A DNA stretch of 64,000 bases. Origin: the human T2T-CHM13v2.0 reference genome, Homo sapiens. The notes below the pieces were generated by a model. It saw nothing but the letters and a program-made list of their open reading frames with translations. It was not told the DNA's origin and made no database searches. The DNA is taken from NCBI RefSeq assembly GCF_009914755.1, contig NC_060932.1; one strand, written 5' to 3'. Positions 76 to 30,119 of the stretch are shown piece after piece (positions within the stretch are counted from its first letter, which is position 1; every line of letters starts with the position of its first letter). A program made the position numbers and the translations under genes.

Positions 76-79
76 AGGA

Positions 80-4266: not shown

Positions 4267-4570
<304 letters not shown>

Positions 4571-6720: not shown

Positions 6721-7998
6721 GTGCCCATTAATCAACCTTTCAAAACCCTTTCTAAATCCCCTGTGCCCCTCCTCCTCCTACCTTCTGGTAACCACCAATC
6801 TACTCTCTACCTTCATGAAATCTACTTTTTAAGCCCCCCCAAGTTTGAGAAAGAACATGTGGTATTTGTCGCTCTGTGCCAGTTTACTTCACTTAACATA
6901 ATGACCTCTGTGTTCCATCCACATTGCTACAAATAACATAATTTCATCATTTTCTATGGCCGAGTAATATTCCACTTATATTTATGTACCACATTTTCTA
7001 TATCCATTCATCTATAAATTAACATTTAGGTGAATTCCATATCTTGGCTAACGTGAATAGTACTACAATAAACATGGGAGTGCAGACATTTCTTGAATAT
7101 ACTGACTTCGTTTCTTTTAAATATATACCAAGCAGTGGGAATGCAGAGTCATATGGTAGTTCTATAGTTTTTCAATGAGCATTCACACTCTTTTTCATAC
7201 TGTCTTTTTCAGAGAGTGTATGAGTTTCCCTTTCTTTTCATTCTGGCCAGCACTCATTGTTTATTGTCTTTTTGATAAAAACCATTTTAACTCGGGTAAA
7301 ATGATATCTCCTGTGGTTTTGATTTGCATTTCCCTGTAACACTGAACATCTATTCATGTATCTGTTGGCCATTTCTATGTCTTCTTTTGAGAAATACCTA
7401 TTCAATCAAAAATTTTGCCCATTTTAAAATCGAGTTATTTGACCATTTGCTGTTGAGTTACTTATATATTCTGGTTATTAATCCCTTTTCAAATGGATAG
7501 CTCAAAAATATCTTCTACCATTCTGTAGCTTGTATCTTCACTTTGTTGATTATTTCCTTTACTGGGCAGAAGGGTTTTAGCTTGATGGGACACCACATCT
7601 AAATATTTTAGCATTTGTTGCTCATAATTTAGAGGTCTTCCCCTCCCCCGCCGACCCCCTGCAAAATCTTTACTCATCCCACCATTGTAGTGTTTCCCCA
7701 ATCTTTTCTTCTAGTAGTTTCATATTTTTAGTTCTTACATTTAACTCTTTAATCCAAGTTGAGGTGATTTTTGTAAATTGTGAAAGTTAAGAGTCTAGTT
7801 TGATTCTTCTTCATAAGCATATCCAGTTTTCTGAGCACCATTTATTGAAGAAACTCCCCATTCCTCAAAGTATGTTCTTGGAGCCTTTGTCAAAACTAAG
7901 TTGGCTATAAATGCATGGATTTCTAGGTTTCTCTATTCTGTTCCACTGACCAATGTGTCTATTTCCATGCCAGTACCATACTATATTGGTTACCATGG

Positions 7999-8428
<430 letters not shown>

Positions 8429-8774
8429 TGGTTCTTCTTTAAATGTCTGACAGAACTGAGCAGTGAAACTGTCAGATCATGAGCTTCCCTTTGATGGGAG
8501 ACCATTTTATTAGTGCTTTGATCTCGTTACTCATTACTGGTCTGTTCAAGTTTTTTCTTTCTTCAAAGTTCCCGATGAACTTCGTGGTTCTTGAATCTTC
8601 TTGGTAGTTTGTATGTTTCTAAAAATACCTCCACTTCTCGTTTTTCCAAGTAGTTGGGGAATACTTCTTCATAAGAGTCTCTAATGATTTTGTGTTTCTT
8701 TGTATTTCTGCGGTATCAGTAGTTATGTCTCTTTTTTTGTTTCTGATTTTATTGATTTTGGTCTTTTTTCTTAG

Positions 8775-9093
<319 letters not shown>

Positions 9094-12000
9094 AATTTTG
9101 CCAATGTTTTAAAAAACCCAACTTTTCATTTCTGTTGACCTTTTAAATTGTTTCTTAAAATCTGAACTTCACTTTTTATGCTCTGACCTTTATTGTTTCC
9201 TTCCACTAATGTTGAGTTTTTTTCCCATGCTTTTCTAGTTCTTTACAGTGTTTCATTAGATTGTTTATCTGAAATCTAAGTTTAAGAAAACATTAACACA
9301 TAATAACTATACATATTTATGGGGTACATGTGATATTTTGAAATATGCATGTAATGTGTAATAATCAAATCAGGATATTTTGGATACCCATCACTTCAAA
9401 CATTTACTACATCTCTGTGTTGGGATCATTTCAAATCTTCCAGCTATTTTGAAATATTCAACAATTATAAACTATATTCATCCTCCGGTGCTATGAAAGA
9501 ATAGGACTTATTCCTTCTAACTATATGTTTCCATTCGCCTCCCTTTAATCCCACCACCACCACTATCCACAGCCTCTGGTAAATATCATTTTACTCTCTA
9601 TGTCCATGATATCAACTTTTTAAACTCCCTCATGAGGGAGAGCATACAATATGTGTCTTTCAATGCCTGACTTACTTCACTCAATATAATGAAATGTAAT
9701 TTTATCCACGTTACCGTAAATGCCAAGATTTCATTTTAATGGAAGAGTAATATTCTATTATGTATATATGTTACATTTTCTTTGTGTATTCATAAGTTGA
9801 TGGACACAGATTAATTCCATATCTTGGCTATCAAGAATAGTACTGTAGTAAGTACAGGGATGCCCTATAACTCTGACATTAATTTCCTTCCATTTGGATA
9901 AAAACATAGTAGTGGGGTTGCTGGATCGAATGAAATTACTCCTGGGTTAAATTTATTCCCAGGTTTTTTCTTTTGTAGCTGTTATAAATGGGATTACTTT
10001 CCTGATTTCTTTTTCAACTAGTTCATTATTAGAGAATAGACACACTGCTGAGTTGTGTACACTGATTTTTTACCTTGAAACTTTACTGAGTTCATCTATC
10101 AGATCTAAGAGTTTCAGGTAGAGTCTTTAGGTTCTTCTATATATAAGATCATGTTATCTGAAGAAAGGACAATTTGAATTCCCCTTTTCAAACGTGGATG
10201 CATTTCTTTTGCCTGGTTACTCTGGCTAGGACTTCCAGTACTATATTGAATATGAGTGGTGAAGGTGAGCATCCTTATCTTGTTTTAGTTCTTAGAAGAA
10301 AGGATTTCAGTTCTGCCTCAGTATGTAGTTAGCTGCAGCTTTGTCATACATGGCGTTTACTATGATGTGTTCTTTCTATGTCTAATTTATTGAGTTTTTT
10401 TATTATGAAGGGATGTTGAATTTTATGAAACCCTTTTTTTGCATTTGAGATGCAAAAATATATAATTATATTAAAAATATAATTTTTGACCTTTTTGTGA
10501 CGTATCATGTTTATTGATTTACATATAATAAACCATCCTACCATCCCTGGAATAAAACCCACTTGATCATCGTGAATGATCTTTTTATTGATTTGTTAGA
10601 TTTGGTGTGCTGGTATTTTGCTGAGGAATTTTGCATCTAAGTTCGTCAGGAATACTGGCCTATAGTGTTTTCTTATTGTATCCTTATCTGGTTCTGGCAT
10701 CAAGGTAATTCTGGCCTCATGGAACAAGCTAGGAAAAAATCCCTCCTCTCCAATTTTTCGGAATAGTTTGAGGAGAACTGATGTTAGATCTTCTTTGTAA
10801 GTTTGTAGCATTCAGCAGTAAAAATCTCCTGGGCTCAAGCTTTTCTCTGTTAGAAGACATTTTATTACTGACTCAGTTTCATTACTCATTATTGATCTGT
10901 TCAGGTGTTCTATTTCTTCATGGCCAAATACTGGTAGTTTCCTCATGTCCAGGAATGAATCTGTTTCCCGTAGGTTCCAATTTGTTCAGACAGTTGTTCA
11001 CGATAGTCTCTAACAATCTTCTATTTTTGTGGGATATAAGTTTTACTGTCTCCTTTTTTGGTTGGGATTTTATTTGTGTCTTCTTTTTTAATCTTGGTTA
11101 GTCTATCCAGCAATTTATGAATGTTGTTTATTCTCTCAAAAAAAAAACCCAACTCTTCATTTCACTGATCCTCTGTATAGCCTTTTTTTCACCTCTAATT
11201 TAGTTCTGCTCTGACTTTATTATTTCCTGCTGTTAATTTTGTATCTGGTTTGTTCTTGCTTTTCTAGTTCCTTGAGGTGCATCAATAGGTTCTTTAAAAT
11301 CTTTCTACTTTCTTCATGTAAGTATTTGTTGCTATTAAACATCCTTTTATCATGGCTTTTGCTGTATCCCACATATTTTGATATGTTGTGTTCCCATTTT
11401 GATTTGTTTCAAGAAACTTTTTGTTTCTTATTTCTCCTTAAATCCAGTGATGGCTCATAATTGTGGCTTAATTTCCTTGTATTTGTACAATTTCCAAAGT
11501 TCTCATTGTTGATTTCTAGTTTTATTCCATCGTGGTCTGAGAAGATACGTGATATTATTTCTATTTTTTTAATCGTTGAGACTACTTTTGTTGTATAACA
11601 AATAGTCTAGCCTCAAGAATGTCCCATGTGATAAGAATACTTGTTCTGTAGCTGTTGGACAATATGTTCTGTAAATGTCTATCAAGCGCATTTGATCTAA
11701 AACGAAGTTTAAATCCAATACCTCTTTGTTGATGACTTGGCTAGATGATCAGTCCAAGGCTGAGAGTCAGTTGTTGAAGACACCTAATCTGATTTTATTG
11801 GACTCAGTCTCTCCCTTTAGATTCAATAATGTTTGCTTTCTATATCTGCATGCTCCAGTGTTGGGCGCACAAATATTTAGAATTGTTTAATCTTCTTGCT
11901 GAAATGGTCCCTCTACCATTATAGAATTACCTTCTTTGCCGCTTTTTGGCTTAAAGTCTATTTTATCTGATACTAGTGTAGCTACTCATGCTTGCTTTTG

Positions 12001-12299
12001 GTTTCTGTTTGCATGGATTATCTTTTTCCATCCCTTCACTTTGAGTCTACGTGTCTTTACCAGTAAAGTCAGTTTTTTATAGGCAGTATATAGTTAAGTC
12101 ATTTTTTTTTGTTTTTCTATTCAGCCAATCTATATTTTTTAAGGGGGGAATTTAAACTGTTTACATTCAAGGTTATTATTCAGTACTTAATTCCTGTCAT
12201 TTTGTGAATTATTTTTTGGTTTTGTGTATCCTCTCATCCTGTTCTCCTCTTATCATTGTGGTTTGCTGGTTTTCTGTAGTAGTAACACTTGCCTCCTCT

Positions 12300-12605
12300 A
12301 TTTATTTATTTATTTTTTTGTGAGACCGACACTCACTCTGTTGCCCAGGCTGGAGTGTGCAGTGGTGCGACCTTGGCTCACTGTAAGCTCTGCGTCTTGG
12401 GTTCACGCCATTCTCCTACCTCAGCCTCCTGAGTAGCTGGGACTACAGGTGCCTGCCACCAAGCCTGGCTAATTTTTTTGTATTTTTAGTAGAGACGGGG
12501 TTTCACTGTGTTAGCCAGGATGGTCTCAATCTCCTGACCTCATGATCCGCCTGCCTTGGCCTCCCAAAGTGCTGGTATTACAGGCGTGAGCCACCGCGCC
12601 TGGCC
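12300..12605 (-). mobile_element. Alu (AluY-like)
   Basis: gtaagctc...gggttcacgccattctcc diagnostic of young Alus. Confidence 0.9.
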
Positions 12606-12861
12606 GAGAGTTTTATACTTTTATGTGTTTTGATTATGACAGATATTGTCCTTTATCTTCTAAATGCAGGGCTCCCTTGACCTCTTCTTGTAGGGCCAGT
12701 AGAGTGGTGATTAACTTCAATTTTTCCTTGCTTTGGAAAGCATTTATTCTCCTTCATTTTTTATATCTTCCCCAGGTATAATATTTTTGGCTGACAGTTG
12801 TGTTTTTTTGTTTGTTCTGCTTTTCACCACTTTGGAGTTATCATTTCATTTACTCCTGGAC

Positions 12862-13294
12862 TGCAGTGGCCAAAGTAATTCCATCCACCACGTTGATTTC
12901 TTATTAACCCCAGTTCCAAGAAGGCCTCTAAGATTTCCAGTTTATTTTTACTTAAGAGCATGTACTTACCATAAATCCCATTCCTAGGTCAAAACAATGT
13001 AAATGTTATTGTACTTGCTATAATCAATGCCCTTAAGCAGTTATCCTACACAGCCCTTCTGATGCATGCATATCCTTTTTCTATGGCATATAAGCCCTAG
13101 GTCTTGGGAGTAAAGGCACAGGGATCCACCATCTTTGTCTCTTGAAGTACCTCCCAAGACACAATCCCTATTAAATGTTCCTAAGTCCCTATTAAATGTT
13201 TCTAAGAAACTGAATTTGTCAGCCTCTTTCTTTGGCCTCTCATATTCCTTGAACTTTGGGGGTAGGGTTGTATAGACTTTTCCACCGTGGAACA
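12862..13294 (+). mobile_element. Solo LTR, probably ERVL class (LTR47-like, tentative)
   Basis: TG..CA ends, 5-bp TSD tggac/tggcc interrupting L1 sequence. Confidence 0.7.
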
Positions 13295-15387
13295 TGGCCT
13301 GGAAGGTTTCTGCTAAGAAATTTGCTATTAGTGTGATAGGGATACTCTTCTCTGTGACTTGACCCCTTTGCTGTATTTAGAATTCTCTTTTTCTTGGACT
13401 TTTAACAGTTCGACTATGAAGTGGCATGGAGAAGGCCTTTCAGGGTAGAATATATTTGAAGATCTTCGAGCTTCCTATATCTAGATGTCTGTATCTCTTC
13501 CAAGACTTGAGAAGTTTTTACCTATTATTTCGTTAAATGGGTTTTCTATGCCATTACCCATCTGTTCTCTTCCAGGAAAACTGAAAATTCCACTATTTCG
13601 TCATTGTATGTGTTACATAAGCTTTCTTCGTTTTTATTTTTTTTAAAAATGTTATCTGCTCAGGTTATTTCAAAAGACCTGTCTTCAAGTTTACAAATTC
13701 TTCTGCTTGATCTAGAGTCTGTTATTGAAACTGATGATTATATTTTTTATTTTACTCTTTGAATTCTTCAGTTTCAGGATTTCTATTTAACTTCTTTCTG
13801 ACATCTTTGTTGAATTTCTCATACAGATGGTGAAATGTTTCTTTGCATTGTTCATCTGTTTTCTGTAGTACCTGGGTTTTCAGAAATATTTTGAATTCAT
13901 TTTCAGGTATTTCATAGATTTTTTTTAATATTGGCATCTGTTGCTGGAGAATTATTGTGTTCCTTTGATGGTTTCATGCTTCCTTGATTTCTCATGTTTC
14001 TTGTGTCCTTACATTTATATCTATGCATCTGGTGTAACATTTGCTTCATCCAACTCTATGGATTGGGTTTCGAAGGGAAAGACATTTTTTTCTATAGAGC
14101 TATCTATAGAGTTGTTTGGGTAAGGCGTTTTGGCTTTGATTCTGGGTGGGAGAAGCAGTGCAGTCTCCATATGACTTCTTTGACTATCTTTAGCATCAGT
14201 GGTGTCTATGAGTTCCTCAGTGGATAAAGCTGTGGCTTTTAGTAACGGCTGTAGTGAGGCTTTGCTAGTGAAAGGGACATCAGGCAGGCCAGTTCTTAGG
14301 CAACAGTGATGGCAACTCTGGGATGGATATGCAGGATCTCGGTCAACACACGTGGATATTGGTAAAAGCAGGTCAGGAGGACGAATCCTTGGTCTTCAAG
14401 TGGATTGTCTGTGTGCTAGCAGTGGCAACAATGGGCTGAGTGAATGGGTCCTCAGGCCCTTAGATGGTATGCATAATGTCTGCGGCTGCAACAGCAGCAG
14501 AGGGCTAACTTGGGGCCCCAAGCTACAGCTTTGGGTGCCAGCAGTTAGGGGTACAAAGGGCCTAGTGGCCATCACCGAGCATCCAAGTGGCACGCAGCTG
14601 GGTGGCACATGGCCGTAGGCAGGGCAGTGGCAGTCTCACTTGGTCATGCTATATAATCCTTTTTATATTTTGTTGAATTAGGTTTGTTTTAGAATGCAAG
14701 AAATATTCATAAGGGATATCTTTATCATGACTTGTCTCATTTTGGTATCAGGGTAATAGTGCTCTCATAGAATTACTTAAAAAGTGTTACTCTTTTTTTC
14801 TGAAGGGTGTAAAAAAACTGATGTTAAAACTTCTTTAAATGTCGATGCAATTCACAAGTAAAGCCATTTGATCTTAGGCTTTTCTTTGTAGGAAGTTTTC
14901 TGATTACTAAACTCTTCACTTGCTAAGGATCTATTCAGGTTTTGTTTCCTTTTGAGTTTCAGTAGTTTTTATCTTTCTAAGAATTTGTTCATTTCATCTA
15001 GGTTATCTAGCTGTTGACAATATTCACTTACAGTAGTTACTTCCATAAGGCCAATAGTAATGCCCTCTTCATTACTGATTTTAGTAATTTGAGAGTTCTT
15101 TTACTCATGGTCAGTCTAATTCAACTTTTGTCAGTTGTTGATCTTTTCAAAAAACAAGCTTCTGATTTCATTGCTTTTTCTCTATTACTCTTCTATTCTC
15201 TGTTTAATTCATCTTTGCTCTGATTATTCTTTCCCTTCTTTGGACTGAGTTTGCTTTTGTTTCTTTCATTAGGTTAGACTGTAAATTTGACATTTTTCTA
15301 AAATACAGCAATTTAGAGCAATAATTTGCAATTTGGCAATTCATCAGCTGTATACCATAAGTTTTTTATGTTGTATTTTCATTTTGC

Positions 15388-15678
15388 TTTTTTTGTTGTT
15401 GTTGAGACGTAGTCTTGCTCTGTTGCCCAGGCTGGAGTGCAGTGGCACAATCTCAGCTCACTGCAACCTCCGTCTCCTGGGTCAAGTGATTCTCTCACAT
15501 CAGCCACTCGAGTAACTGGGATGATAGGTGCATGCCACCATGCCTGGCAAATTTTTTGTATTCTGAAGTAGAGATGGCATTTCACCATGTTGGCCAGGCT
15601 GGTCTCGAACTCCTGACCTCAAAGTGATTTGCCTGCCTCGGCCTCCCAGACTGCTGGCATGAGCCACTGCAACCGGCC
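15388..15678 (-). mobile_element. Alu
   Basis: Antisense Alu consensus. Confidence 0.9.
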
Positions 15679-16072
15679 AACATATTTTTATTTTCATCAC
15701 TATCTTTTAGTTCCTCTTGTAAATTTTTTTTGGACCTATTGGTTATTTAGGAGTATATTGTATGACTACATAAATGTCCTTTAATTGATTTCTAATATCA
15801 TTCTATTATGTCCAGAAACATGTTTTGTATGTTTTCAATCCCTTTTTGCGAATTTTGTCCTATCCTTGAGCATTTTTCATGTACACTTTAAAGATTACTC
15901 TCCTGTCATCAGGTATCTGTTAGATCTAGTTGGTTTTTATGTTGTTCAAGTCTATTTCCTTGTTGATATCGTGCGTGGTGATTCTAAGCATTATTTAATA
16001 TACGGTGCTAATTTCTCAATAAAACAATTTCTCCCTCCAATTCTGTCCATTGTTCTTTCACGGCTTATTATG

Positions 16073-16942
16073 TGTTCAGAAGGAATAAGACTTTTTCCCT
16101 ACACTCATACACCACTCAACACAATAGTCACTGAAGTATGTGGGGGTTTCTCCACATTCACAACCAATTCTCCAGGAGACACCAGTTGGGTGTTTTATAA
16201 TTCAATTATAATACTATGTATCTGCTGATTTCATGAGCTCATACAGGTTAAGGGCTCAGCCCTACAAGATCACCCCAAGTTTCGGGTGTCAATTGGTAGC
16301 AGTGGGTTGTCAGTTATACTTCTGACCAATCAGCTATAAATGGGGGTTTGCAGGATCATCTATCTGGGTTTAATTTACTAGGAGGGCTCACAGAACTCAG
16401 GGAAACATTTATCCCTTTAATATCAAAGATATTGCAAAGGATATAGATAAACAGTGAGATAAAGAGATACACAGAGTGAGGTCTGAAAAGGTCCTAAGTG
16501 TTGGGGCTTCTGTCCCTGTGATGTTGGGATGCCCACCTTCCAAGCACATAGATGTACTTGCCAACCTCAAAGCTCTCCAAACCCCATACTTTGGGTTTTT
16601 ACAGAGGCTTTATAACACAGACATGGCTGATTAAATCAATGGTCAGTGGTATTAACTAAACCTTCACCCTATTCTTGCTCCCTGGAGGTGGGGTGTGTGC
16701 GGAAGGAGGGGAGGCTGAAAATTCCAACCCTCTAATCACATGGTTGTTTCCCCTAACAACCTGTCCCCTTGCTGAGCTTATCTAGGAGCTCACCAAGGCT
16801 TGCCTCATTAGAATAAACAATGCTCCTATCATTCATCCAAGGCATCTAGGAACCCTGTGTCAGAACTGCTGTCACTCAGGAGGTCCATTTCAAGAACCAG
16901 GAGCAGAGACCAAATCTGTATTTCTTATTTATCATAGTATCA
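16073..16942 (-). mobile_element. LTR, MER21-like
   Basis: caggttaagggctcagccctacaagat motif; tgtt...atca ends. Confidence 0.7.
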
Positions 16943-17039
16943 CTGGGGCTTATATTGATTGGAAGTGTTTTATCACCTTGATGAAATGACCCTTATTATA
17001 AAATGTTCTTCCTTGTTTCTAGGAAAAAATATCTTACCT

Positions 17040-18044
<1,005 letters not shown>

Positions 18045-19664
18045 CTACAGAGTCAAAAGTGTTTTTTCAGGACACCATTAATTTCTACTTTAAGGAATTA
18101 TTAAAAACATCATTTAAGTAATAATTGTCATAATTCATAACATTTTAAAACAGTAAAGTCTATGAAGCTATTTTGGTCTATGAAATCATACCTCATCCTA
18201 AATTCAGATTTACTTTAACTGCTTATTTGGCAGTGCCTTCTGTCCAATTTCAACAGTGACCATACCATTATCTATGTCAGCACAAAGATACCAATTTGAC
18301 TCACGTGGACTTTGAAACAGCCATTAGGAAAAATAGCAGTTAGGTGGGCAAGATGGATATATAGATTCAGACCAACAAAAGCCAATTCAAATACTTGGAG
18401 TCCTACGCAGTAAGCAAGTATTAGTACAATCATCCAATAGACTGTACCTTAATTTTCTTTACTGGTTCAGAGAATAAAGATAATGTGGTTTTCTATGTGT
18501 TAAAAATGTCCAACAACTTCTCGAATGCTTGACTAGCTGAAGTTGCTTTTATCTGTTGATTGTACTCCTCTGACTCACTGATCATTCTTCTAGGCAAGAA
18601 TTATTAGGAACAAAAGGTGAGGAGTCAGATCAGTCCATTTTGCTGCTTACTGGCACATATTTAAACACATTCCTTCCACTCAGGCGTTTATACCATTTCC
18701 AAAGGGAATAAAAGTAAAATGAAGTCTTTGTCATCAAGAAATACTCCTCACGATGTCTGGATTTTTTTCTCCTTGTCATGTACCAGGCTGTCTCAATTAT
18801 TTTAAAATACTATTATTCAGGCAAACACTACTCAACGAATAAAGCAAATTCTAATCAGTGATTTTGTGGCTCAAGGCTTCATAAGTATCCAAGAGAAGCT
18901 CATACACTATCACAGTTCCATTCATTTTCTTCCCAAATTAGTTTTGGATAACTTTGCATAAAAGTAGTTCTGCTCTGAAACAAATGTTGACCAGTTGCAT
19001 GCCAATAAAGTACTTTAATAATACTTTTTCATATTTTAAATTTCTTCCCATTAAATCAATAAAGCATGGAGATTTGAAAATGCCTCCTGATGCATTGAGA
19101 GGTACAGAAATGGTACCTTGAAATCAATATATTTTCTATCAAAACAGATGCAACTAAAGATGAAGCTCTGGATCATTACCTTTAAAATCAGTAGGCATTT
19201 TAATCAAACTTAAAAAATATCAAATAACAAAATAGATGACAAAGTGGAAAGTTTAAAAAAAAATTCTATTTGGAACCCCAAAATTCCAGGCAGGCCCAAT
19301 TCTTAAATATTTGGCTAATCAAGGTATCATCCTTTATGGGAGCAAATATTAATCAAAAGTCAAAATACTCTCTATATCGGAGGCCTACGTCATCCCGCAA
19401 CAATTTAAGGCTACTCTCTGCAGCGACAATATAACCATTTTCAAATGCTTTCTTATGATAAAAAGATGTTTTCTCTGTTTGTGTTCGTTTAAAGATACAT
19501 TAAATGCCCTTTAGAGCAAAGTTCCTTGATAAATTTATCATTTCTGGAAGAACTTATCCTCAATATGTTTAATACATTCCCATAAACAATTTTTAGTAAA
19601 GAATTTGGGGAAACAAGTGTCCAAGCTCTAGCAGGTTTCGTGAACTAAGGGCAAGACTCCAAAA

Positions 19665-19865
19665 CAGACAAATTCTGTAAATTTCTGTAAAGGACCAGAG
19701 AGTAAATATTTTAGGCTTTGCAAGTCATATATTCTGTTACAGTTATTCAACACTATAATTGGTGTGAAGATGTAAACAACTGGGTTTGGCTATTTACGAT
19801 AACACTGATTTACAGAAACAAGCCCCAGATGGATTTTGCCTATGAGTCATAACTTGTCTACCCCT
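19665..19865. mobile_element. MER58-like hAT MITE
   Basis: ttctgtaaaggaccagagagtaaatattttaggctttg motif. Confidence 0.6.
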
Positions 19866-20908
19866 TGTCTTAAAGAAAACCAGAAGGAAGTGGTATTGGT
19901 ACTGAGGACAACATCGTGAGTGAGCAAGCAAACAGGTTAGGCATCCTGATGTATTCTATTCTCCAAATGCAGGTTTTCGCTTTGTTAAAATAAAGGGCAC
20001 TTTCCCCTGACCATAACAGAGAAGCAGCTCCCAACTTCTGTTGCAATAACGAGAGCAAAGGGGAAAATGAAGATGGAGAATTTCATTCATATCAGGAGCA
20101 GCCAGAAACCGTATACAAGCTTCGGCACCAAACTCAGCAAGCGGGTGACCAAATCTTTGAGCGTGCCATCCCTGGCAATCTGGGGAATGTAACCTACAAA
20201 GCTCTGACCATCGCCTAACTTAAAATCAGCCCTAGGAGAGCTGCGAATAGGGCAGCTGTGTCAATCAGGTATTCACTAGGAAAGCTGACAACAGCATATA
20301 CTCTGATTCAGAGGTTGAAGAATTAAGCATAATGATTCTAAAATTCTTCATTTTTGATAGTGTCAGGTCTGGAAGCTTTGCGGAAAACGTGCTTTCGGAG
20401 AAACTAAAAGCCCTCATCATCCATTGGTAAAATCTGGCTTCATAAATCTCAGGATATTAAAAACACAGCAGGCATACTCTCCCATATGACAATTCCACCT
20501 CCTCCAACATGTTACAATAAATGGTGGAAAGGCATACTACTGATTTGGTAATTACTTCAGTTATGTGGCTCTGCTGAAAGCTCCTGTTTTGCTTTTATTT
20601 TGCATGCTTTGCTATCAAATAAGTTTGATTATGTCATGCTGCCCTCAGGTGTCCATTCCTTTTTAAATGTATGATTGGGGGGCAAAGGAGAACCCTTTGT
20701 AAATTTTAAAACCAGGACTACAGTGGATATTCAATGTGCTCTCTCACAAACCCTAATCACAGAGCTCATTTAAGTGCTAAAAGCTCAACATTTAGGAATA
20801 TCTGATATGTCACTGGGACTTCTCCCACCTGTCCTATAATATCCTGCCTTTGAAAAAGGAATCAGAGTGGTAAAAAGAAAAAAAGGAACTAAAAATAGTA
20901 CCACAGCA

Positions 20909-21352
20909 CAGTGGTTCTCAAAGCGTTTCAGAGATACTGTTCCAGATGTCCATGAGGTCAACCCTATTTTTATAGTAACACTAAAAACATTTTTTTCATT
21001 CTCTCAAATATACAGTAGAGTTTTCTAGAAGATGCATGACTTCTGATACACTGCAACCGACTATAAACACAAACAGATATGAGAATCTAGCCATCTTTTA
21101 CTAAGCCAAATATAAAAAGACTAGCAACAATTTTAAGTGCTATTCTTTAATATATTTCTCACTTAGGAAAGTATGACTATTATTCATAAATGTGTTATTC
21201 ACTTAATGGGTTTTTAATGATTTAATGCAATTTAAAAATCTTATCAGTTTCAGTTCCAGATAAATATTAATATGTAAACAAAAGATTTTGGGGCTTCTCA
21301 AAAATTTTAAGAGTATAAAGCTATCCTGGGACCAAAAAGTTTTAGAATACTG
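20909..21352. mobile_element. hAT-Charlie non-autonomous element
   Basis: TIR-like ends cagtggttctcaaa ... tttagaatactg. Confidence 0.6.
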
Positions 21353-22037
21353 AAATATCAGACTTCTATTGATATTTCATGGAAAGCACTTCCCCTAAAA
21401 TTTGAAAAGATAAACACACCTAACTCACTGTCAAATTACAAGGACTAACCAAACAATTTTTAACTTGATTGCTGTAGCAGGACTGGCATTAAAGTAAGCA
21501 ACAGGATTGGAAACAAGAGTCAGGGGTTTCAGCCACCATCATCCTCATTCCTCCCTCCTTCCTCCACAATCAATTTGCAGAAAGTAAGAAAGAGCGAAAC
21601 TGACTTAGAATTTGACCTGCTTTCCTTGATCACGTTCTATAACAGAACTGTGCCAATGTAAAAAGCTTACAGTGATAAGAAGACTGAATAATGTGTAAGT
21701 TAGATAATATGAGGTCCCTCAATAAGCCCCACTGACACAACTGATTAAAGCTACCCTGAGGTATTTTCCATATATAAACCTGTTCTTAAAAAAGCAAAAC
21801 TACCAAAAGTGGGAGGCTAGAGGGTGGGGAAAGGGGACAGGTGAAGGAACAGAGGATGGAAAAAAGGAAAGAAGGCTTTCATTCTAAGAGGTCATAGAAT
21901 CCAACAAAATTGACCAGTGCATGATTAAACTATGGCATACTTAGATAAGGATTCCTATTAAAGTCTAGACCATTGGCAATATGATAGTAAATTATATTCT
22001 CAATTTCAATTTACAATTCATCATTTTTAGATCATAA

Positions 22038-22353
<316 letters not shown>

Positions 22354-22589
22354 AACATTCTTCTATAAAAACATTTCAACACCTAATGGTTAGGTTCTCA
22401 GGCTATTCTCTATATCCTTATTGTGGAGACAGAAAGAGTATTGGTGAAAATGAACGCCAGGCCCCACTAGAAACCCTCTGCAACTGTGAGATCTAGCCCT
22501 GATCCTTCTCTTAGGACCACCGAGAAGCTGCAGGGATGACGGCCTTGGGGCCACTGTGTCTGGGAAGCTCCAAGTCAGGTAAAAACATA

Positions 22590-25250
22590 GACCAAAAGCT
22601 TCTCAAGGTGATAAGCAACCTTGGCGAAGTCTCAGGATACAAAGATCAATGTGCAAAAATCACTAGCATTCCTACACACCAAAAGTCAAGCCGACAGCCA
22701 AATCATGAATGAACTCCCGTTTATAACTGCCAACAAAAGAATAACATACCTAGGAATACAGCTAACAAGGGAAATGAAGGACCTCTTCAAGAAGAGCTAC
22801 AAACCACTGCTCAAAAAAATCAGAGATGACACTAACAAATGGAAAAACATTCCATGCTTACAGAAGACTGGAAGAGTCAGTATCACGAAAATGGCCATAC
22901 TATCCAAAGCAATTTATAGATTCAATGCTATCCCCATTAAACTACCATTGACCTTCTTCATTTAATTAGAAAAAAACTATTTTAAAATTCATATGGAAGC
23001 AAAGAACCACCCAGACAGTCAAAGCAATGCTAGGCAAAAAGAGGCAAGCTGGAGGCATCGTGCTGTCTGACTTCAAACTGTACTACAGGGCTACAGTAAC
23101 CCAAACAACATGGTACTGGTACAAGAATGAACACACAGATCAATGGAACAGAATAGAGAACCCAGAAATAAGACTGCATGCCTACAACCATCTGATCTTC
23201 AGCAAACCTGACAAAAACAAGCAATGGGGAAAGGATTCCTTATTTAATACATGGTGCTAGAAAAACTGGGTAGCCATACGCAGAAAACTGAAACTGGATC
23301 CCTTCCTTACACCATATACAAAAATCGACTCAAGATGGATTTAAGACTTAAATGTGAAACCCAAAACCAATAAAACCCTAACAGAAAACATAGGCAATAC
23401 CATTCTGCACACAGACATGGGCAAAAATTTCATGATTAAGATGTCAAAAGCAATTGGAATAAAAGCAAAAATTGACAAACGGGATCCAATCAAACTGAAC
23501 AGCTTCTGCAGAGCAAAAGAAAGTATCAGAGTCAACAGACAACCTACAGAATGCGAGAAAAATTTTGTAATTTATCCATCTGACAATGGTCTAATACCCG
23601 GCACCTACAAGGAATTTAAATGTATAAGGAAAAAACAAACAATCACATTAAAAAGTGGGCAAAGGACACAAAGAGACACTTCTCAAAAGACATATATGCG
23701 GCCAAGAAACATGAAAACAACCTTAATATCACTGATCAATATCGCAAATCAAAACCACAATGAGATACCATCTCACACCAGTCAGAATGGCTACATTATT
23801 AAAAAGTCAAAAAACAACAGATGATGGCGAGGTTGTGAAGAAAAAGGAATGCTTTTACGCTGTTGGTGGGAGTGTAAATTAGTTTAATCATTGTGGAAGA
23901 CAGTATGGTAATTCCTCAAAGACCTAGAACCAGAAATACCATTTGACCTAGCAATCCCATTACTGGGTATATATGTAAAGGAACAGAAATCATTCTGTTA
24001 TAAAGATACATGCATGCATATGTTAATTGCAGCACTATTTACAGTAGGAAAGACATGGAATCAACCTAAATGCTCATCAAGGGCTGGATAAAGAAAATGT
24101 AGTACATATACACCATGGAATGCCATGCAGCCACAAAAAGAGAATGAGATCATGTCCTTTACAGGGACAGGGATGGAGCCAGAGGTCATTATCCTTAGTA
24201 AACTAAGGCAGGAACAGAAAACCAATTACCATGTGTGCTCACTTGTAAGTGGGAGCTGAATGATGAGAACACATGGACACATGGGGCAGAACAGCTCACA
24301 GTGGGGCCTGTCAGAGGGTGGAGGGTGGGAGGAGTAAGAACATCAGGAAGAACAGCTAATGAATGCCAGGCTTAATACCTGGGTGATGGGCCAGTTAGAA
24401 TGGTGATCATTAAAAAGTCAGGAAACAACAGGTGCTGGAGAGGATGTGGAGAAATAGGACCACTTTTACACTGTTGGTGGGACTGTAAACTAGTTCAACC
24501 ATTGTGGAAGACACTGTGGAGATTCCTCAAGGATCTGGAACTAGAAATACCATTTGACCCAGCCATCCCATTACTGGGCATATACCCAAAGGATTATAAA
24601 TCATGCTGCTATAAAGACACATGCACACTTATGTTTATTGCGGCACTATTCACAATAGCGAAGACTTGGAACCAGTCCAAATGTCCATCAATGATAGACT
24701 GGATTAAGAAAATGTGGCACATATACACCATGGAATACTATGCAGCCATAAAAATGATGAGTTCATATGCTTTGTAGGGACATGGATGAAGCTGGAAACT
24801 ATCATTCTGAGCAAACTACCGCAAGGACAGAAAACCAAACACCGCATGTTCTCACTCATAGGTGGGAACTGAACAATGAGAACACTTGGACACAGGGTGG
24901 GGAACATTGCACACCCCCTGTCGTGGGGTGGGGAGAGGGAGGAGGGATAGCATTAGGAGATATACCTAATGTAAATGACAAGTTAACAGGTGCAGCACAC
25001 CAACATGGCACACACATACATATGTAACAAACCTGCACGTTGTGCACATGTACCCTAGAACTTAAAGTATAATAACAAAATAAAATAAAAAATAAAAAAA
25101 TAACTCTGTAAGGTATCAAAATAGAAAAAAAAAAAAAAAACAAAACTGGGTGACGAGATGATCTGTGCAGCAAACCACGTTGGCATTTGTTTACCTATGT
25201 AACAAACCTGCACATCCTGCACATAGACCCCTGACCTTAAAGTTAGAAAT
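22590..25250 (+). mobile_element. 5'-truncated older primate L1 (ORF2 3' part and 3'UTR), interrupted at 24390
   Basis: ORF2 peptides INVQKSLAF.., YLGIQLT.., WYWYKN..; 3'UTR resumes at 25146. Confidence 0.92.
24391..25145 (+). mobile_element. Younger L1PA 3' fragment nested in the older L1, with a bipartite poly(A) tail
   Basis: ORF2 C-terminus CWRGCGEIG...HIYTMEYYAAIK, L1PA 3'UTR, TSD ctgggtgatggg/ctgggtgacgag. Confidence 0.9.
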
Positions 25251-27836
25251 CAAAAGATCTTTGCAAATAATAATTTAGGAAAAAAAGCCAGGTAAGACAA
25301 GACAAACACGGCACCAAGGAGATAGGAGAGAGGACTCCAAAGGAGAAGGCAGTGCTAGCACAGTAGAAATTATGACCATGGATGGAATCTACAGCAGGGG
25401 AAAGCTCAGAGAGAAAACTGAATGCCAACGATAGCTTTCATGGCAGATGGCATCACCTTTCAAGGCAGAGGGCATCACAGATACAGAGAAGCACAGACAG
25501 AAGAGGTATCCACAGGGAAGATATTATCCTGCAGGACGATGAGAGGATAGCCTGCAAATGTACTTAACAGCTGCCAGTTACAATAGTGATCATTACAGAT
25601 GCAGAGAGTTCTTGAGGACATTAACTCTATGAGGTTCATCAATATCATGGAAGTCTGTGATGTTTTTGACGGTGAAAATATAAAATAGCACAATATGAAG
25701 CATTAAATTTTTAAAATAATTTTTATAACAGTCATTTTCCACTACTAATAAACCAAATATTTATCCAGTATTTAAGATTCTAGGCTCCTAGAAAGCCAAT
25801 GCAATAATTAAGTTTATAGATTAGAAAAGAAATAATGAATTCTTACAATCTATCTCACACTGAACTCCACATTTTTTTAACACTGTTCTGTTACAAAACC
25901 TAAACTTACTTTCTTCCTTGATTATATTCTTCTCCCTACCAGTAAGTTGTACTAGATATGGTTTCAACCCTTTCCAAACTTACAACCCAACACTAAAAAC
26001 ATTAGTAAGGTCGTGCCTGATCATTAAACTCAGACCACAGGGCATGATACTCAACATGCTCTGAGTATGTCAAGGGTAAAGTATATGTAGGAGGCCCAGC
26101 CCGAGAAAGAGAGCTACCTCTAAGAACCACAACCAGGCTCTTATACCAATTGTACATGGTGGGCTGGCTTCTGCCAATACTGGAGAACAGAGGGATGCTG
26201 GATAAAACTGCTACTGAAAATCTCAAGCCTTGATGTTAAAAGGTACATTTTGTCAAAAAATCTTGATTAAAAACAATGCCCTGGCTACCGCCTCTTACCA
26301 TGGCCTGACCTTGGCCAGCCACTGACTTGTGTATCTCTTGTGACTTTCTAGTTGTGGAACTGGCCAGCTGACTATGCTCTGATCTATCTCACTCCTCACT
26401 GCTATGCAATTCTATACTTAACCCTCCTACCACCTTAGAACACCAGCCCTGGGTGATAATCCTGCCAGGACGGTAGGAACCTGACTAAACTGTGACTGAA
26501 GTACAAGCAAGCTAGTTAGTGGTAGGAAACAGAACGCATTTGAAGATCCATCCAGAAAGGGAGTAAGCATAAACTTATTCTAACATATCAAATCTTATCC
26601 ATACCATTTCAAACAAGGTTGAAGAAAAAGACTTTCAACTCTTACCTTGTTGATAGTTGAAACAATATTCAATAAAACTTAGTTCCAATATAGCAAAGAA
26701 AGAAACTCTAGAGTTTAAGAGAAATGTATCTGTATGTGTAGAAGTTTAATTTACATAAGTATTTTGTAGATAAAGAGGCATTTCAAAAATAAAACAAATT
26801 ATATAGCAAATTCACCACACGACTACAATTATAAAATATTTAATTTAAGGGAATAAACTACTTGCAGACAAGTAAAAACAAGTAGATACTCTTGCTAGGA
26901 AAATGATATATCAGTCACATTTTTTTAAAAGCAGGTACTGAATTCTCCCAAATATTGTATATACTTCAGATTGTTTTTTATCTAGCCTAATTAGAGAAGT
27001 TTAACATAATCCAACATGAAATTAAAACACCTCCCCAGTGTTTTCCCATCATAGCACCTCAGCAACCTGCTACCATGTCTTCAGTGAAACCTGACTAATG
27101 AGGTCAGCCTAGCCAATACCATCAGAGAGGATTATTTGGCTTCCATGAACATTGTCTCATTCACCTCTGATCCTTACCCAAATGGCAAAGAGTATGGAAA
27201 GGAGGAGGCACACGCATGCTATATACATGTTTGTTGAAGGGGAAAGTTAGAAAAAGAAAGGGATTTCAACATGTCACATTAGCTAAATGTAAGTAAAATA
27301 TTAGTATACATTCCATTATTTTATTAGTAAGGAAATTAGCAGGCCAAACCAAGGCCCATATTAATGCATTCTCAGTGCCTCATTCCTCAGAGTAAAGGAA
27401 AGGTTCACCAAGAGCAGCCAAAACAAGTTAATCTCCCAAGAGGGGAGTCAGACCTCCTCATAGGGGAGTCAGCCCTCCCCTACTGAAAGCATATGAGGAC
27501 AAGCTGGTCTTGGCACTTCTTAGAAAGATCATGCTGCAGTATTGCTATTATGACACAATGGTAAGGAAAAAAAGAATAATGGTTGATTAGTGTACTCCCC
27601 ATGAAGATTATTCTGGCATCGGATCAAGTAATGGGTGGTCATATTCTAGGTAGTATAGCATTAAGGAGAAGGTGAAAAGGAGCAGAACAGTAGAAATAAT
27701 TCATTTTATCTCCTGCATGATTCGATTTCATAGGGGCCATGCTGACAAGTCAAACAGACACTAAAACAACAACAAAAAAATCAGGCAATCATGATGCAAG
27801 AGAAGCTACATCCAGAATTATGGATTAAAAACTTAC

Positions 27837-27839
27837 CAC
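27837..27839 (-). CDS. PSD3: Candidate 3-nt microexon GTG (Val) after ...DLHGH
   Basis: Minus strand reads ACTAAC...tttcttctatctttctcctct...ttcttctag|GTG|gtaagt. Lies in a phase-0 intron. Confidence 0.7.
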
Positions 27840-29790
27840 CTAGAAGAATAATTTATTTTTAAAATGAATCCAGAGGAGAAAGATAGAAGAAACATATTTA
27901 CATGGTTAGTTCTTATGACAGCTACTATATATTCAACAGACTTGTAACAGCATGCATTATGGAAAACTAATACATAAAACCTAAATAGACAATCCCAAGT
28001 ATATCGCACACATTTTTAAAACAGAGAACTACTTATCACCAAACACATGATCCTGAATACGACAGAGATTCACTGTTATTGATAATTTTCTCCCTCTTCT
28101 ATCAGTAATTTTGCCACGACTGCCAATTATTAATTATCCATGATTGGCCTAACTCAAGGTAATATTAAAATGTTAATTTATGTAAACTCTTTTCCATCCC
28201 AGTTGCCAAGAAGAAGCAGGATGCTTCATCTAATCTCCTTACAATTCCTTGTAAGTCTAAAGAAGAGCAAATGTCCTAGATTTGCAGCTCTAAACCTGTA
28301 GCTACTGAAACCTGGGTGTCCACAGCTCATCTAGACATCAAGCATGCTGAGATATCTAATAAAAAATAACATCTTTATTGGTTGCTACATTTCAAGTTCT
28401 TATGATTCAGATACATGCTTATGTAAAAGTATTATTAAAGCTATATTAGCTTTTTAAAAATGCAATCTAGGATTTAGTAGAAACAAATCATCAAAAATGT
28501 GACAAAAGCTCTAAGAGATCTGCAACCTTTAAAGAGAAATTGCAATATTACTGAATTTTTTTCCTCCCACCATTAAACTTTTCTCAGTTAACAGATGCTA
28601 AACGTACAACTCTTTTATGTTGATGGAACCTCAAAATATCTAGTGTGAAGGGAATTCTTCACGCTGGTGATCACTGACTTGATTCAATGTTATATGTGGC
28701 CAAACGCACTCAAAATTTTCTCCTTTGGCCAGAAAGGCTAAGGAAAAGAAGGGTGCAAAGAGCAACTGTTATCACCAAACAGCCAGACAAAGCAGTGAAA
28801 ACTTGCTTGGCCAGTAACACGAAAAAAGTGGTCATGACAATCCACTGACTGGCCATCCCTTTAACAAGCTGGATGAACATTAGATTGCGGTAGTCATGTC
28901 AAGATTCACACTGTGAAATGCCTGCATTTCCACATGGTGTATTAGCCGTGCTATACTGCCCAAGAATGCTTCCTGAAAGTATTTTCTTTTCATCTGTATT
29001 ATCTCTGGACATGTGCTACCTATGTTTACAAGCCACTAAGTGATTCTAAATTCACCTCTTATATATGGCAAAAGGAACTTTCTAGCTGAGTAGTTTGAGA
29101 TATGTTAAAATGATGTTAAAATTAGGATTCTATCACTATATCTCCTGTTTGCTTTCTGGTGGTGGAACCCTTTCTCCCTGAACCCCTTCCTCTTATAACA
29201 GCTAGTCCAACTTAATGGTCCCATAGAGCTCCATGGTTCCTTTCTTAAAAGGGAACACTATATTTTCCAAAAAAGGAAATTATGTGACTAGCAGAATATC
29301 TAAATATCAATTTTTTATATGTAATTTTTAAATTGTAAGATATATTACGGCAAATCAAGGGATAATATACTCTACACAGACACCTGATTTTCTCTTCAAA
29401 ATACAATCAGAATTCGTTAAATATGGACTAATCTATACTTACTTAGAGCAAAAATTACTTCATAGTCCCAGGTTAATGAGTATTATGAAGAGTTCGAGTA
29501 AATGCTAAAATTCTACTTCTACAAAACTTGCAAATTTATATATAATTATACATTTTAACACTTTATCTTCTATCTTAAGTAGATGATGAGACGGTAATTA
29601 GTTTGTTTTATTATTTCAACTAGTAAAAGACTAGATACGCTGAGGGGCACAAGAAAGGCTGAGTTATTCAACTCACTATGGTATGTAGGGAAAACACAAT
29701 TCACATTTTCAGATCTAATTTGTATTCTCTCCATCATTATCTATCAACTGTAATTCTCAACCAGAAAACAAAAATAAGTAAAAGCTCTGT

Positions 29791-30060: not shown

Positions 30061-30119
30061 GTGGCCATGTAGATCGGTATTAAGAAGCATTATTGCACAG
30101 GTAAGGCAATGGACTCCAT
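30061..30119 (-). CDS. PSD3: PSD3 coding exon (59 nt): DGVHCLTCAIMLLNTDLHGH (Sec7 motif 2), ends in phase 0
   Basis: Acceptor tatctttctttag|, donor CAC|gtaagt. Conserved Sec7 LLNTDLH motif. Confidence 0.96.

What the first reader, a model, noticed from the sequence alone, without database searches (positions are those of the whole stretch)
27831..27956. Single-codon (GTG, Val) microexon candidate in the PSD3 Sec7 domain
Seen: on the minus strand a consensus branch point ACTAAC (27905-27910, also a QKI motif) is followed by a pyrimidine tract and an AG-free zone of about 70 nt, then ttcttctag|GTG|gtaagt with a perfect donor. RBFOX-type motifs lie nearby: TGCATG at 27951-27956 (upstream) and GCATG at 27738-27742 (downstream). 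The flanks are repeat-free. The upstream exon ends in phase 0, so inclusion adds one Val right after Sec7 motif 2 (LNTDLHGH-V). Known: cytohesin ARF-GEFs use a 3-nt microexon to switch lipid specificity. I recall PSD3 records differing by one residue but have not verified this. Inference: a regulated one-residue switch near the ARF6 interface. No UGC lies next to the 3' splice site, so it may be SRRM4-independent.
Basis: partly seen in the sequence, partly recalled or inferred. Interest (0 to 1): 0.8.

Follow-up and report, generated by a model that had tools for sequence, protein, structure and literature searches.

The report
Conserved one-valine microexon in PSD3
A three-base exon hidden in a long intron of the human PSD3 gene would add a single valine to the enzyme's catalytic domain; mouse PSD3 and the sister gene PSD2 carry that valine, so the exon is very probably real, although the supplied human annotation lacks it.

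Summary
Taken alone the motif is not remarkable: AGNNNGTAAGT occurs 3 times in the window against 2.39 expected.

Outside evidence supports the reading:
- The predicted product, LHGH-V-NIGKK, is the Swiss-Prot mouse PSD3 sequence. It also appears in 6 other named mammalian cluster representatives (7 of 147 proteins held).
- In human sequence the Val cannot come from shifted splice sites of the flanking exons.
- Of 17 possible Val microexons in the 32,769-nt intron, only this one has a consensus donor and a 70-nt AG-free zone.
- The homologous PSD2 intron holds the same 11-mer, cag|GTG|gtaagt, with a 78-nt AG-free zone. PSD2 records with the Val number 31 of 104, including apes and birds. One penguin isoform pair differs only by it.
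- The same ranking recovers a matching 3-nt exon candidate in CYTH3.

Verdict: a real, ancient alternative Val microexon. Three things were not tested: use in human tissue, orthology at DNA level, and any effect on ARF6 exchange. It is a new member of a known kind. Interest 0.5.

The parts
27837..27839 (-). 3-nt microexon GTG (Val), inserted in phase 0 between His (end of exon 30061-30119) and Asn (first codon of the next exon)
   Evidence: The product LHGH-V-NIGKK is seen in mouse Swiss-Prot PSD3 and 6 other mammalian records.
27840..27841 (-). 3' splice site AG (context ttcttctag|G)
27831..27836 (-). 5' splice site GTAAGT, a 6-of-6 match to the consensus, with G as the last exon base
   Evidence: It is the only one of 17 Val candidates in the intron with a 6/6 donor.
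27842..27911 (-). AG exclusion zone of 70 nt upstream of the 3' splice site, implying a distant branch point
   Evidence: Gaps this long make up 18 of 2329 AG-to-AG gaps in the intron.
27905..27910 (-). ACTAAC, the best branch-point candidate, with its branch A about 66 nt upstream of the 3' splice site
   Evidence: Its function is inferred.
27872..27892 (-). C/U-rich tract (tttcttctatctttctcctct) with UCUU/UUCU motifs. It serves as the polypyrimidine tract for the distant branch point and is a possible PTBP-type site.
   Evidence: A similar tract lies at the same distance in PSD2. Protein binding is inferred.
27738..27742 (-). GCATG 95 nt into the downstream intron (RBFOX-type motif)
   Evidence: PSD2 has TGCATG at +20. 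Binding was not tested.
27951..27956 (-). TGCATG 117 nt upstream of the microexon
   Evidence: Binding was not tested.
30061..30119 (-). Upstream constitutive Sec7 exon ending ...LNTDLHGH in phase 0, with donor CAC|gtaagtgtgg
   Evidence: plus the hub annotation.
1..27830 (-). Window part of the 30,545-nt downstream intron. The next exon (AAT ATT GGA..., NIGKK...) starts outside the window at window coordinate -2709 (G000:C8:19031291), with acceptor ctctgtttcag.

Best explanation
Window 27837-27839 (minus strand; T2T chr8:19,061,837-19,061,839) is a genuine, evolutionarily old, alternatively spliced 3-nt cassette exon of PSD3/EFA6D.

Position and effect:
- It lies 2,221 nt into a 32,769-nt intron that splits the Sec7 domain in phase 0.
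- Inclusion inserts one Val between His and Asn of ...LNTDLHGH|NIGKK....
- Relative to solved cytohesin Sec7 domains this is a one-residue lengthening directly after the conserved LH-x-H that ends motif 2.

How it is recognised (inferred from the anatomy):
- A perfect donor, with G as the last exon base.
- A distant branch point (ACTAAC, about -66) followed by a C/U-rich tract.
- An AG-free zone of 70 nt that lets the only AG be chosen.
- Because U2 and U1 complexes cannot easily sit on 3 nt at once, the two introns are probably removed one after the other.

Origin: the sister gene PSD2/EFA6C has the same exon in the same intron. The exon therefore probably predates the PSD2/PSD3 duplication. 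PSD and PSD4 have only 110- and 208-nt introns at this position and no such exon.

Shown here: the signals, the existence of the Val isoform in other species and in PSD2, and the lack of any alternative source of the Val in human DNA.

Inferred: that the mouse Val codon is orthologous to this site, that human cells include it, which factors regulate it, and that the extra residue tunes ARF6 exchange or its regulation.
For: 1. Product exists.
- LHGH|VNIGKKMT occurs in 7 of 147 proteins held after two searches.
- These are Swiss-Prot PSD3_MOUSE (P0130) and named records of Meriones, Castor, Ctenodactylus, Manis, Cynocephalus and Catagonus.
- Castor has both a Val record (X5) and a Val-less record (X2).

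2. No other source of the Val in human DNA.
- The upstream donor region reads CAC|GTAAGTGTGG, so a +3 donor would begin AG.
- The downstream acceptor is tttcag|AAT with no tandem AG. In phase 0 a tandem NAG could not encode Val anyway.

3. Uniqueness in the intron.
- The intron holds 199 AG|NNN|GT/GC sites, and 17 of them encode Val.
- Only this one has a 6/6 donor; the next best has 4/6. It also has the longest AG-free zone of the 17.

4. Paralogue.
- All four human PSD genes share the phase-0 intron position.
- The 10,929-nt PSD2 intron holds ...ccctcgcag|GTG|gtaagt at C5:140348402, 528 nt after the donor.
- That site has a 78-nt AG-free zone and ranks top of 75 candidates.
- In Markov simulations AGGTNGTAAGT arose in 4.5% (PSD3) and 1.0% (PSD2) of 1000 runs. 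The exact 11-mer arose in 2% and 0.1%.
- AG-free gaps this long are 0.8-0.9% of gaps in each intron.

5. PSD2 records.
- 31 of the 104 motif-bearing records carry LHGH-V-NIGKKMSC (120 PSD2 records were listed).
- They include Pan, Hylobates, Nomascus, rodents, carnivores and four bird genera.
- Aptenodytes X1 and X2 differ by that Val only.

6. Positive control. The same ranking in CYTH3 singles out ctgctttag|GAG|gtaggt, 452 nt after the donor, with a 135-nt AG-free zone. It fits the documented Gly-adding 3-nt exon.

7. Position in the fold. The Val aligns as a single-residue insertion against cytohesin-3: tdlhghVnigkk against tslhnh-nvrdk.
Against: - No human transcript evidence was available. 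By the hub table, none of the 35 RefSeq PSD3 transcripts has an exon here.
- None of the 12 named primate PSD3 records that contain the motif has the lone Val: 8 have no insertion, 2 skip the next exon and 2 have VS. Clustering at 90% identity hides one-residue variants, so this is weak.
- Orthology of the mouse Val codon to this site could not be checked, because no non-human vertebrate genome was at hand.
- The bare motif is at chance frequency in the window.
- The pyrimidine content next to the 3' splice site is only 0.56 at -20..-3.
- Beyond the 11-mer and a C/U tract, the PSD2 and PSD3 flanks do not align convincingly.
- 'PSD3' or 'Psd3' was not found in the supplements of two microexon surveys. 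Those tables may index by coordinates or identifiers, and one file was not searched.
- Predicted isoforms in other species may partly lean on the mouse protein as evidence, so they are not fully independent. This caution comes from my own knowledge of annotation pipelines.
Confidence: 0.82

Rival explanations
1. Chance juxtaposition of splice-like motifs in an AT-rich deep intron, never spliced in human. The Val form in other mammals would then come from elsewhere, or the human lineage has stopped using the exon while the sequence happens to persist.
For: - AGNNNGTAAGT is at background frequency, 3 seen against 2.39 expected.
- A Val-coding version arises in 4.5% of simulated introns.
- The hub's human RefSeq table has no such exon.
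- No primate PSD3 record with the lone Val was found, 0 of 12.
Against: - It needs a second coincidence in PSD2. The same 11-mer arose in 0.1% of simulations and a gap this long is 0.9% of gaps. The PSD2 Val form is documented in apes.
- The human site is the only one of 17 candidates with a consensus donor.
- All signals are intact in human.
Confidence: 0.08
2. The site works mainly as a recursive-type intermediate splice site. The upstream exon is first joined here, and a second step then removes the remaining 30.5 kb. That step uses either CAC|GTGGTA (no Val) or GTG|GTAAGT (Val). The Val form would then be a by-product of stepwise intron removal rather than a selected protein variant.
For: - A 3' splice site directly abuts 5' splice-like sequence, AG|GTGGTAAGT.
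- The intron is long, and a 3-nt exon probably has to be spliced stepwise (inference).
Against: - The regenerated zero-length donor GTGGTA matches only 3 of 6 consensus positions (read).
- The first segment is only 2.2 kb, and the intron is 32.8 kb. As I recall, described vertebrate recursive sites lie in far longer introns.
- The Val codon is kept in both paralogues, and the Val form is the mouse reference protein. This argues for selection on the protein.
- No paper linking PSD3 to recursive splicing was found.
Confidence: 0.06
3. The Val-bearing records are an annotation artefact, spread from one mouse cDNA into homology-based gene models, and no 3-nt exon exists.
For: - Three records (Prolemur, Heterocephalus, Nasalis) carry VS. 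That equals the first 6 intron bases, GTAAGT, read through to the next GT.
- This is what a protein-guided gene builder would do to fit a template that has an extra Val.
Against: - The Swiss-Prot mouse entry is, as far as I recall, cDNA-derived.
- PSD2 Val forms occur in 31 of 104 records across mammals and birds, including a pair that differs only by the Val.
- Both human genes hold an intact, top-ranked exon with the right codon in the right intron.
Confidence: 0.03

Closest known systems
Cytohesin (CYTH1/2/3) 3-nt microexon that switches diglycine and triglycine PH domains
   Same: - It is a 3-nt, frame-preserving cassette exon in an ARF-GEF, and it is evolutionarily conserved and alternatively included (passages of PMC6314551).
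- Anatomy measured here in human CYTH3: the exon lies 452 nt after the upstream donor, with a 135-nt AG-free zone, a strong donor (GTAGGT) and the top rank among 53 candidates.
- For comparison, PSD2 has 528 nt and 78 nt, and PSD3 has 2,221 nt and 70 nt.
   Different: - The cytohesin exon adds Gly in the PH domain and changes phosphoinositide preference. This one adds Val in the catalytic Sec7 domain.
- The phase is 1 in CYTH3 and 0 here.
- The CYTH3 and PSD2 exons have TGC close to the 3' splice site. PSD3 has none within 100 nt.
- No functional data exist for the PSD3 variant.
PSD2/EFA6C Val microexon
   Same: - It sits in the homologous phase-0 intron after LNTDLHGH, with the identical 11-mer AG|GTG|GTAAGT, a long AG-free zone, an upstream C/U tract and a downstream (T)GCATG.
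- The protein context is identical: LHGH-V-NIGKKM.
   Different: - PSD2 has TGC at -11 and -39, TGCATG at +20, and a GC-rich setting.
- Its Val form is widely annotated, 31 of 104 records including apes and birds. For PSD3 it is 7 of 147 proteins held, with no primate.
Neural microexon programme (SRRM4/RBFOX/PTBP1-regulated exons of 3-27 nt)
   Same: - Size class, frame preservation, location inside a structured domain, a strong donor, an upstream C/U-rich region and a downstream GCATG.
- The definition is taken from the passages seen and the abstract listed.
   Different: - No UGC lies next to the 3' splice site.
- Tissue pattern and dependence on any factor were not tested.
- PSD3 was not found in the supplements searched.

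Membership tests
Alternative cassette microexon (3-27 nt) | AG and GT splice signals flank the exon on the gene's sense strand inside an intron | tested here: met
   ttcttctag|GTG|gtaagt lies on the minus strand, 2,221 nt into the 32,769-nt intron.
Alternative cassette microexon (3-27 nt) | Frame-preserving with no stop codon | tested here: met
   The upstream exon ends in phase 0, and GTG encodes Val.
Alternative cassette microexon (3-27 nt) | Both the inclusion and the skipping products are observed | tested here: inconclusive
   Both forms exist among PSD3 records of other mammals. Mouse Swiss-Prot has the Val, and Castor has X5 with it and X2 without it. No human transcript data could be examined. 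The hub RefSeq table shows only skipping.
Alternative cassette microexon (3-27 nt) | Conservation of the exon and its splice signals across species | not testable with these tools
   No non-human vertebrate genome was available. Indirect support comes from the identical 11-mer in the paralogous PSD2 intron and from Val forms in mammals and birds.
SRRM4-dependent neural microexon | UGC motif shortly upstream of the 3' splice site (definition recalled) | tested here: not met
   No TGC lies within 100 nt upstream in PSD3. PSD2 has TGC at -11 and -39.
RBFOX-enhanced exon | (U)GCAUG in the downstream intron within about 300 nt (definition recalled) | tested here: met
   GCATG at +95 in PSD3 and TGCATG at +20 in PSD2. 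A single 5-mer within 100 nt is expected fairly often by chance, and binding was not tested.
QKI-regulated exon | Bipartite ACUAAY plus a UAAY half-site within about 20 nt (definition recalled) | tested here: not met
   ACTAAC is present, but the nearby stretch reads TAAA, not TAAY. PSD2 has no ACTAAY within 300 nt on either side.
Cytohesin-type lipid-specificity microexon | Inserts Gly in the PH-domain phosphoinositide pocket | tested here: not met
   The insertion is a Val in the Sec7 domain, aligned directly after the LH-x-H of cytohesin-3. It works like the cytohesin exon in splicing anatomy only.
Vertebrate recursive splice site | A 3' splice site abutting a strong regenerated 5' splice site in a very long intron (definition recalled) | tested here: inconclusive
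   AG|GTGGTA would regenerate a weak donor, 3 of 6. The intron is 32.8 kb. No intermediates could be examined.

The most novel reading that the evidence does not exclude
An ancient 3-nt exon, kept since before the PSD2/PSD3 duplication, lengthens by one residue the loop that follows Sec7 motif 2. By my recollection of the cytohesin and brefeldin literature, this loop borders the ARF-binding groove. In this reading the exon acts as a tissue-regulated switch of ARF6 exchange rate, ARF specificity or autoinhibition in two neuronal EFA6 exchange factors. It would be a catalytic-domain counterpart of the cytohesin PH-domain glycine switch, and the supplied human annotation of PSD3 misses it.
Probability: 0.3. 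Interest if true: 0.7.

Novelty: new member of a known kind. Interest (0 to 1): 0.5.

Why it matters
PSD3/EFA6D and PSD2/EFA6C are brain-enriched activators of ARF6 (passages). A one-residue variant inside the catalytic domain, conserved in two paralogues, is a plausible regulatory handle that has gone unnoticed in the papers I could search.

Practical consequences:
- The human gene model supplied with this window lacks the exon. Variant interpretation, isoform quantification and expression constructs for human PSD3 would all miss it.
- The mouse reference protein carries the Val and the human reference does not. Mouse and human constructs used in experiments therefore differ at this position without anyone having chosen that.
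- The anatomy shared with the cytohesin exon suggests a simple way to find other 3-nt exons. That anatomy is a position near the 5' end of the intron, a very long AG-free zone and a strong donor.

The exon is already implicit in sequence databases, so this is an annotation and function gap, not a new principle.

Tried and rejected
- Alternative donor: a +3 donor is impossible in human, because the intron would begin AG. A +6 donor gives VS, not V.
- Alternative acceptor: there is no tandem AG, and a NAG codon cannot encode Val.
- Repeat origin: the region matched only itself in the genome.
- RNA structure: the 151-nt fold has z = -0.40, and 64 of 200 shuffles fold as well. The pairing of the ACTAAC region with the exon and donor in the minimum-energy fold is therefore not meaningful.
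- Structure model: AlphaFold2 of the mouse Val form with a 24-sequence alignment was poor (mean pLDDT 41.5, residues 677-701 below 50). It placed the Val in a coil between helices 663-676 and 692-700, which I give no weight. No fold search was run on it, and the second fold job was not used.
- Wider family: among 125 motif-bearing representatives at 50% clustering, 1 unnamed PSD2-like protein has the Val. Several distant ones have loops 1-2 residues longer.
- Paralogues PSD and PSD4: their introns are 110 and 208 nt, with no Val candidate.
- Literature searches:
  - PSD3+microexon: 2 papers, both about cytohesins.
  - PSD2+microexon: the same 2 papers.
  - PSD3+micro-exon: 0.
  - EFA6+Sec7+valine+splice variant: 0.
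  - microexon+Sec7 domain: 5, judged from titles and abstract openings to be about cytohesins or to be ARF reviews.
  - PSD3+recursive splicing: 0.
  - PSD3+Srrm4: 7, none relevant by title.
  - EFA6D+splicing variants: 3.
- Papers not readable: Fukaya 2016 on EFA6D variants, cited for microexons, is not held. From my recollection of its abstract alone, its variant classes rest on N- and C-terminal insertions, not on this Val.
- Supplements: Li 2015 had 0 hits for PSD3, with file 1 not searched. MicroExonator had 0 hits for Psd3 in 7 files.
- Two identifiers for Irimia 2014 were not held.
- Paper reading closed and the search of earlier findings was not open. Further supplements that may list this exon were therefore not seen.
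- A bacterial promoter and terminator scan has no bearing on a human intron.
Full report
**1. The observation**

On the minus strand, which is the sense strand of PSD3, the window reads ...ttattcttctag|GTG|gtaagttttt....
- The AG is at 27841-27840, the exon GTG at 27839-27837 and the donor GTAAGT at 27836-27831.
- ACTAAC is at 27910-27905, TGCATG at 27956-27951 and GCATG at 27742-27738.
- The previous AG is at 27913-27912, so the AG-free zone is 70 nt.
- No TGC lies within 100 nt upstream.
- The annotated exon 30061-30119 ends CAT GGC CAC|gtaagtgtgg and translates to GVHCLTCAIMLLNTDLHGH, so the junction is in phase 0.
- The 301 nt around the site matched only itself in the genome.

**2. Is it more than chance?**

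Taken alone, barely.
- AGNNNGTAAGT occurs 3 times in the window against 2.39 expected.
- With a short pyrimidine run the count is 1 against 0.15 expected, and 14 of 100 shuffles had at least one.
- The next exon begins at window coordinate -2709, outside the window, behind ctctgtttcag. The intron is therefore 32,769 nt and the candidate lies 2,221 nt into it.
- In 1000 first-order Markov simulations of that intron, a Val-coding AGGTNGTAAGT arose in 4.5%.
- An AG-free gap of 70 nt or more is found at 18 of 2329 AG-to-AG gaps.

Such a site would turn up by chance in a small fraction of long introns.

**3. The predicted protein exists**

I translated the first Sec7 exon of the window (P0001) and searched the large protein collection for longer proteins. 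I then searched again with the 61 residues around the junction of a Val-bearing hit. Of the 147 proteins then held:
- 125 read LHGH|NIG(K/R)K with no insertion.
- 7 read LHGH-V-NIGKKMT.
- 3 read LHGH-VS-NIGKK.
- 2 skip the next exon.
- 4 have other tails.
- 6, including the query, lack the motif.

The seven Val records are Swiss-Prot PSD3_MOUSE (P0130, 1037 aa) and named records of Meriones, Castor, Ctenodactylus, Manis, Cynocephalus and Catagonus. Castor has both a Val record (X5) and a Val-less record (X2).

No named primate record has the lone Val, 0 of 12 with the motif. The collection is clustered at 90% identity, so one-residue variants are mostly hidden.

**4. Where can that Val come from?**

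- Not from the flanking exons in human sequence. A donor shifted by 3 would leave an intron beginning AG. A donor shifted by 6 (GTAAGT|GTGGAT) gives VS.
- The three VS records look like gene models that read into the intron to accommodate a Val-bearing template. This is inference.
- The downstream acceptor has no tandem AG, and in phase 0 a NAG codon cannot be Val.
- The intron holds 199 AG|NNN|GT/GC sites, and 17 of them encode Val. It also has the longest AG-free zone of the 17.

**5. The paralogue test**

- All four human PSD genes have an intron at this phase-0 position.
- PSD and PSD4 have introns of 110 and 208 nt with no Val candidate.
- PSD2 has a 10,929-nt intron. At 528 nt into it lies ...ctcttgccctcgcag|GTG|gtaagtgtag..., at C5:140348402. 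This is the same 11-mer, with a 78-nt AG-free zone. It ranks top of 75 candidates and is one of only 3 that encode Val.
- The exact 11-mer arose in 0.1% of simulated PSD2 introns, and any Val version in 1.0%. Gaps that long are 7 of 799.
- Beyond the 11-mer and a C/U-rich tract at -40 to -55, the two regions do not align convincingly. That is expected for old paralogues.
- A search with a PSD2 exon returned 120 records, 104 of them with the motif. Of these, 31 read LHGH-V-NIGKKMSC. They include Pan, Hylobates and Nomascus, rodents, carnivores, a shrew, a tenrec and four bird genera.
- Aptenodytes isoforms X1 (836 aa) and X2 (835 aa) differ by that Val and nothing else.

The same anatomy in a human-lineage genome therefore goes with a documented Val isoform. 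The most economical reading is one ancient exon kept in both genes. The choice of GTG among the Val codons fits the preference for G as the last exon base before a donor, which is established splice-site knowledge.

**6. Positive control**

Cytohesins are documented to use a conserved 3-nt exon that adds a glycine (passages). I fetched human CYTH3 and ran the same ranking.
- It singles out ctgctttag|GAG|gtaggt, 452 nt after the upstream donor.
- The AG-free zone is 135 nt, the longest gap of 405 in that intron.
- It ranks top of 53 candidates and is the only plausible one of 8 that would add Gly.

I did not check this against an annotation. The three exons share three features: a place near the 5' end of the intron, an exceptional AG-free zone and a strong donor.

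**7. Mechanism**

*Shown:* the signals, and that the Val is a one-residue insertion relative to solved Sec7 domains. Mouse tdlhghVnigkk aligns with cytohesin-3 tslhnh-nvrdk. No PSD-family Sec7 structure is solved.

*Inferred about recognition:*
- A distant branch point (ACTAAC, about -66) and the C/U tract define the 3' splice site through the AG-free zone.
- The perfect donor compensates for the absence of exon sequence.
- The two introns are removed stepwise.

*Regulation:* the C/U tract (UCUU/UUCU motifs) and the downstream GCATG suggest PTBP-type repression and RBFOX-type enhancement. GCATG is at +95 in PSD3, and TGCATG is at +20 in PSD2. This is motif-level inference only.

*Function:* from my recollection of the ARNO and brefeldin literature, the residues on either side of this loop line the ARF/Sec7 interface, so an effect on exchange or its regulation is plausible. 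It was not tested. My AlphaFold2 model was too poor to use. Distant family members have loops 1-2 residues longer, so the fold tolerates changes in length.

**8. The recalled one-residue difference**

A preprint states that UniProt lists human isoforms of 1048, 1047 (single-residue deletion) and 513 aa (passages).
- A 513-aa monkey record without the Val has the catalytic Glu at 114 and the LKKSHS serine at 476. This is the numbering the preprint uses for human isoform 3.
- The preprint says isoform 3 matches isoform 1 from residue 12 onward.
- The extra residue of the 1048-aa form therefore lies N-terminal of the Sec7 domain. This is inference, because I did not see the UniProt entry.

**9. 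What is known**

- The Val form is in sequence databases.
- By the hub table, human RefSeq (35 transcripts) has no exon here.
- I found no paper describing a PSD/EFA6 microexon.
- 'PSD3'/'Psd3' did not occur in the supplements of two microexon surveys.
Other supplements and Fukaya 2016, which is not held, may bear on this.

**10. Verdict**

This is a real, conserved alternative 3-nt Val exon shared by PSD3 and PSD2 (confidence 0.82). Use in human tissue, orthology at DNA level, regulators and function remain to be shown. It is a new member of a known kind, with interest 0.5.

Noticed in passing
G000:C5:140348402-140348404 (+), locus L010 703-705: Human PSD2/EFA6C carries the same 3-nt Val exon (cag|GTG|gtaagt) in the homologous intron. 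It has TGC at -11 and -39 and TGCATG at +20. Records with the Val number 31 of 104 motif-bearing PSD2 records.
   Followed up: yes
window 30055-30060 (-): The first six intron bases, GTAAGT, are followed by GTGGAT. This tandem +6 donor would add Val-Ser. Three records (Prolemur, Heterocephalus, Nasalis) carry LHGH-VS-NIGKK. These are probably gene-model artefacts, but a real minor donor is not excluded.
   Followed up: partly
window 5921-6691 (-), overlapping RPL35P6 6300-6716: The alternative exon listed by the hub is spliced after LHGH and encodes RWWLLQP followed by a stop, starting at 6691. It matches the tail of the 217-aa record P0003. This transcript would truncate the Sec7 domain, and its terminal exon overlaps a ribosomal-protein pseudogene.
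   Followed up: partly
window 29914-30119 (-): The extended form of the upstream exon reads through the donor. It would end the protein as LHGH-VSVDL-stop, and an AATAAA lies further on. This is another Sec7-truncating transcript.
   Followed up: no
outside the window, G000:C8:19031202-19031291 (-): The next exon (30 codons, NIGKK...DLLK) is skipped in human isoform 12 and in a Symphalangus record, giving LHGH|ALYNSIK. This removes part of the Sec7 domain in frame.
   Followed up: no
protein P0070 (Canis, 191 aa): After LHGH this dog record continues V-QNHRPRICSC..., a tail not encoded in the human window. It may be the Val microexon spliced to a dog-specific terminal exon.
   Followed up: no
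G000:C7:6289454-6289456 (-), locus L011: The CYTH3 3-nt exon candidate GAG has a 135-nt AG-free zone, the longest in its 4,724-nt intron. A very long AG-free zone combined with a strong donor near the 5' end of an intron may be a usable search rule for 3-nt exons.
   Followed up: partly
window 27831-27915 (-): The ACTAACC of the branch-point candidate is nearly complementary to the GGTAAGT spanning the exon end and donor. The two pair in the minimum-energy fold, but the fold is no more stable than shuffles (z = -0.40).
   Followed up: yes
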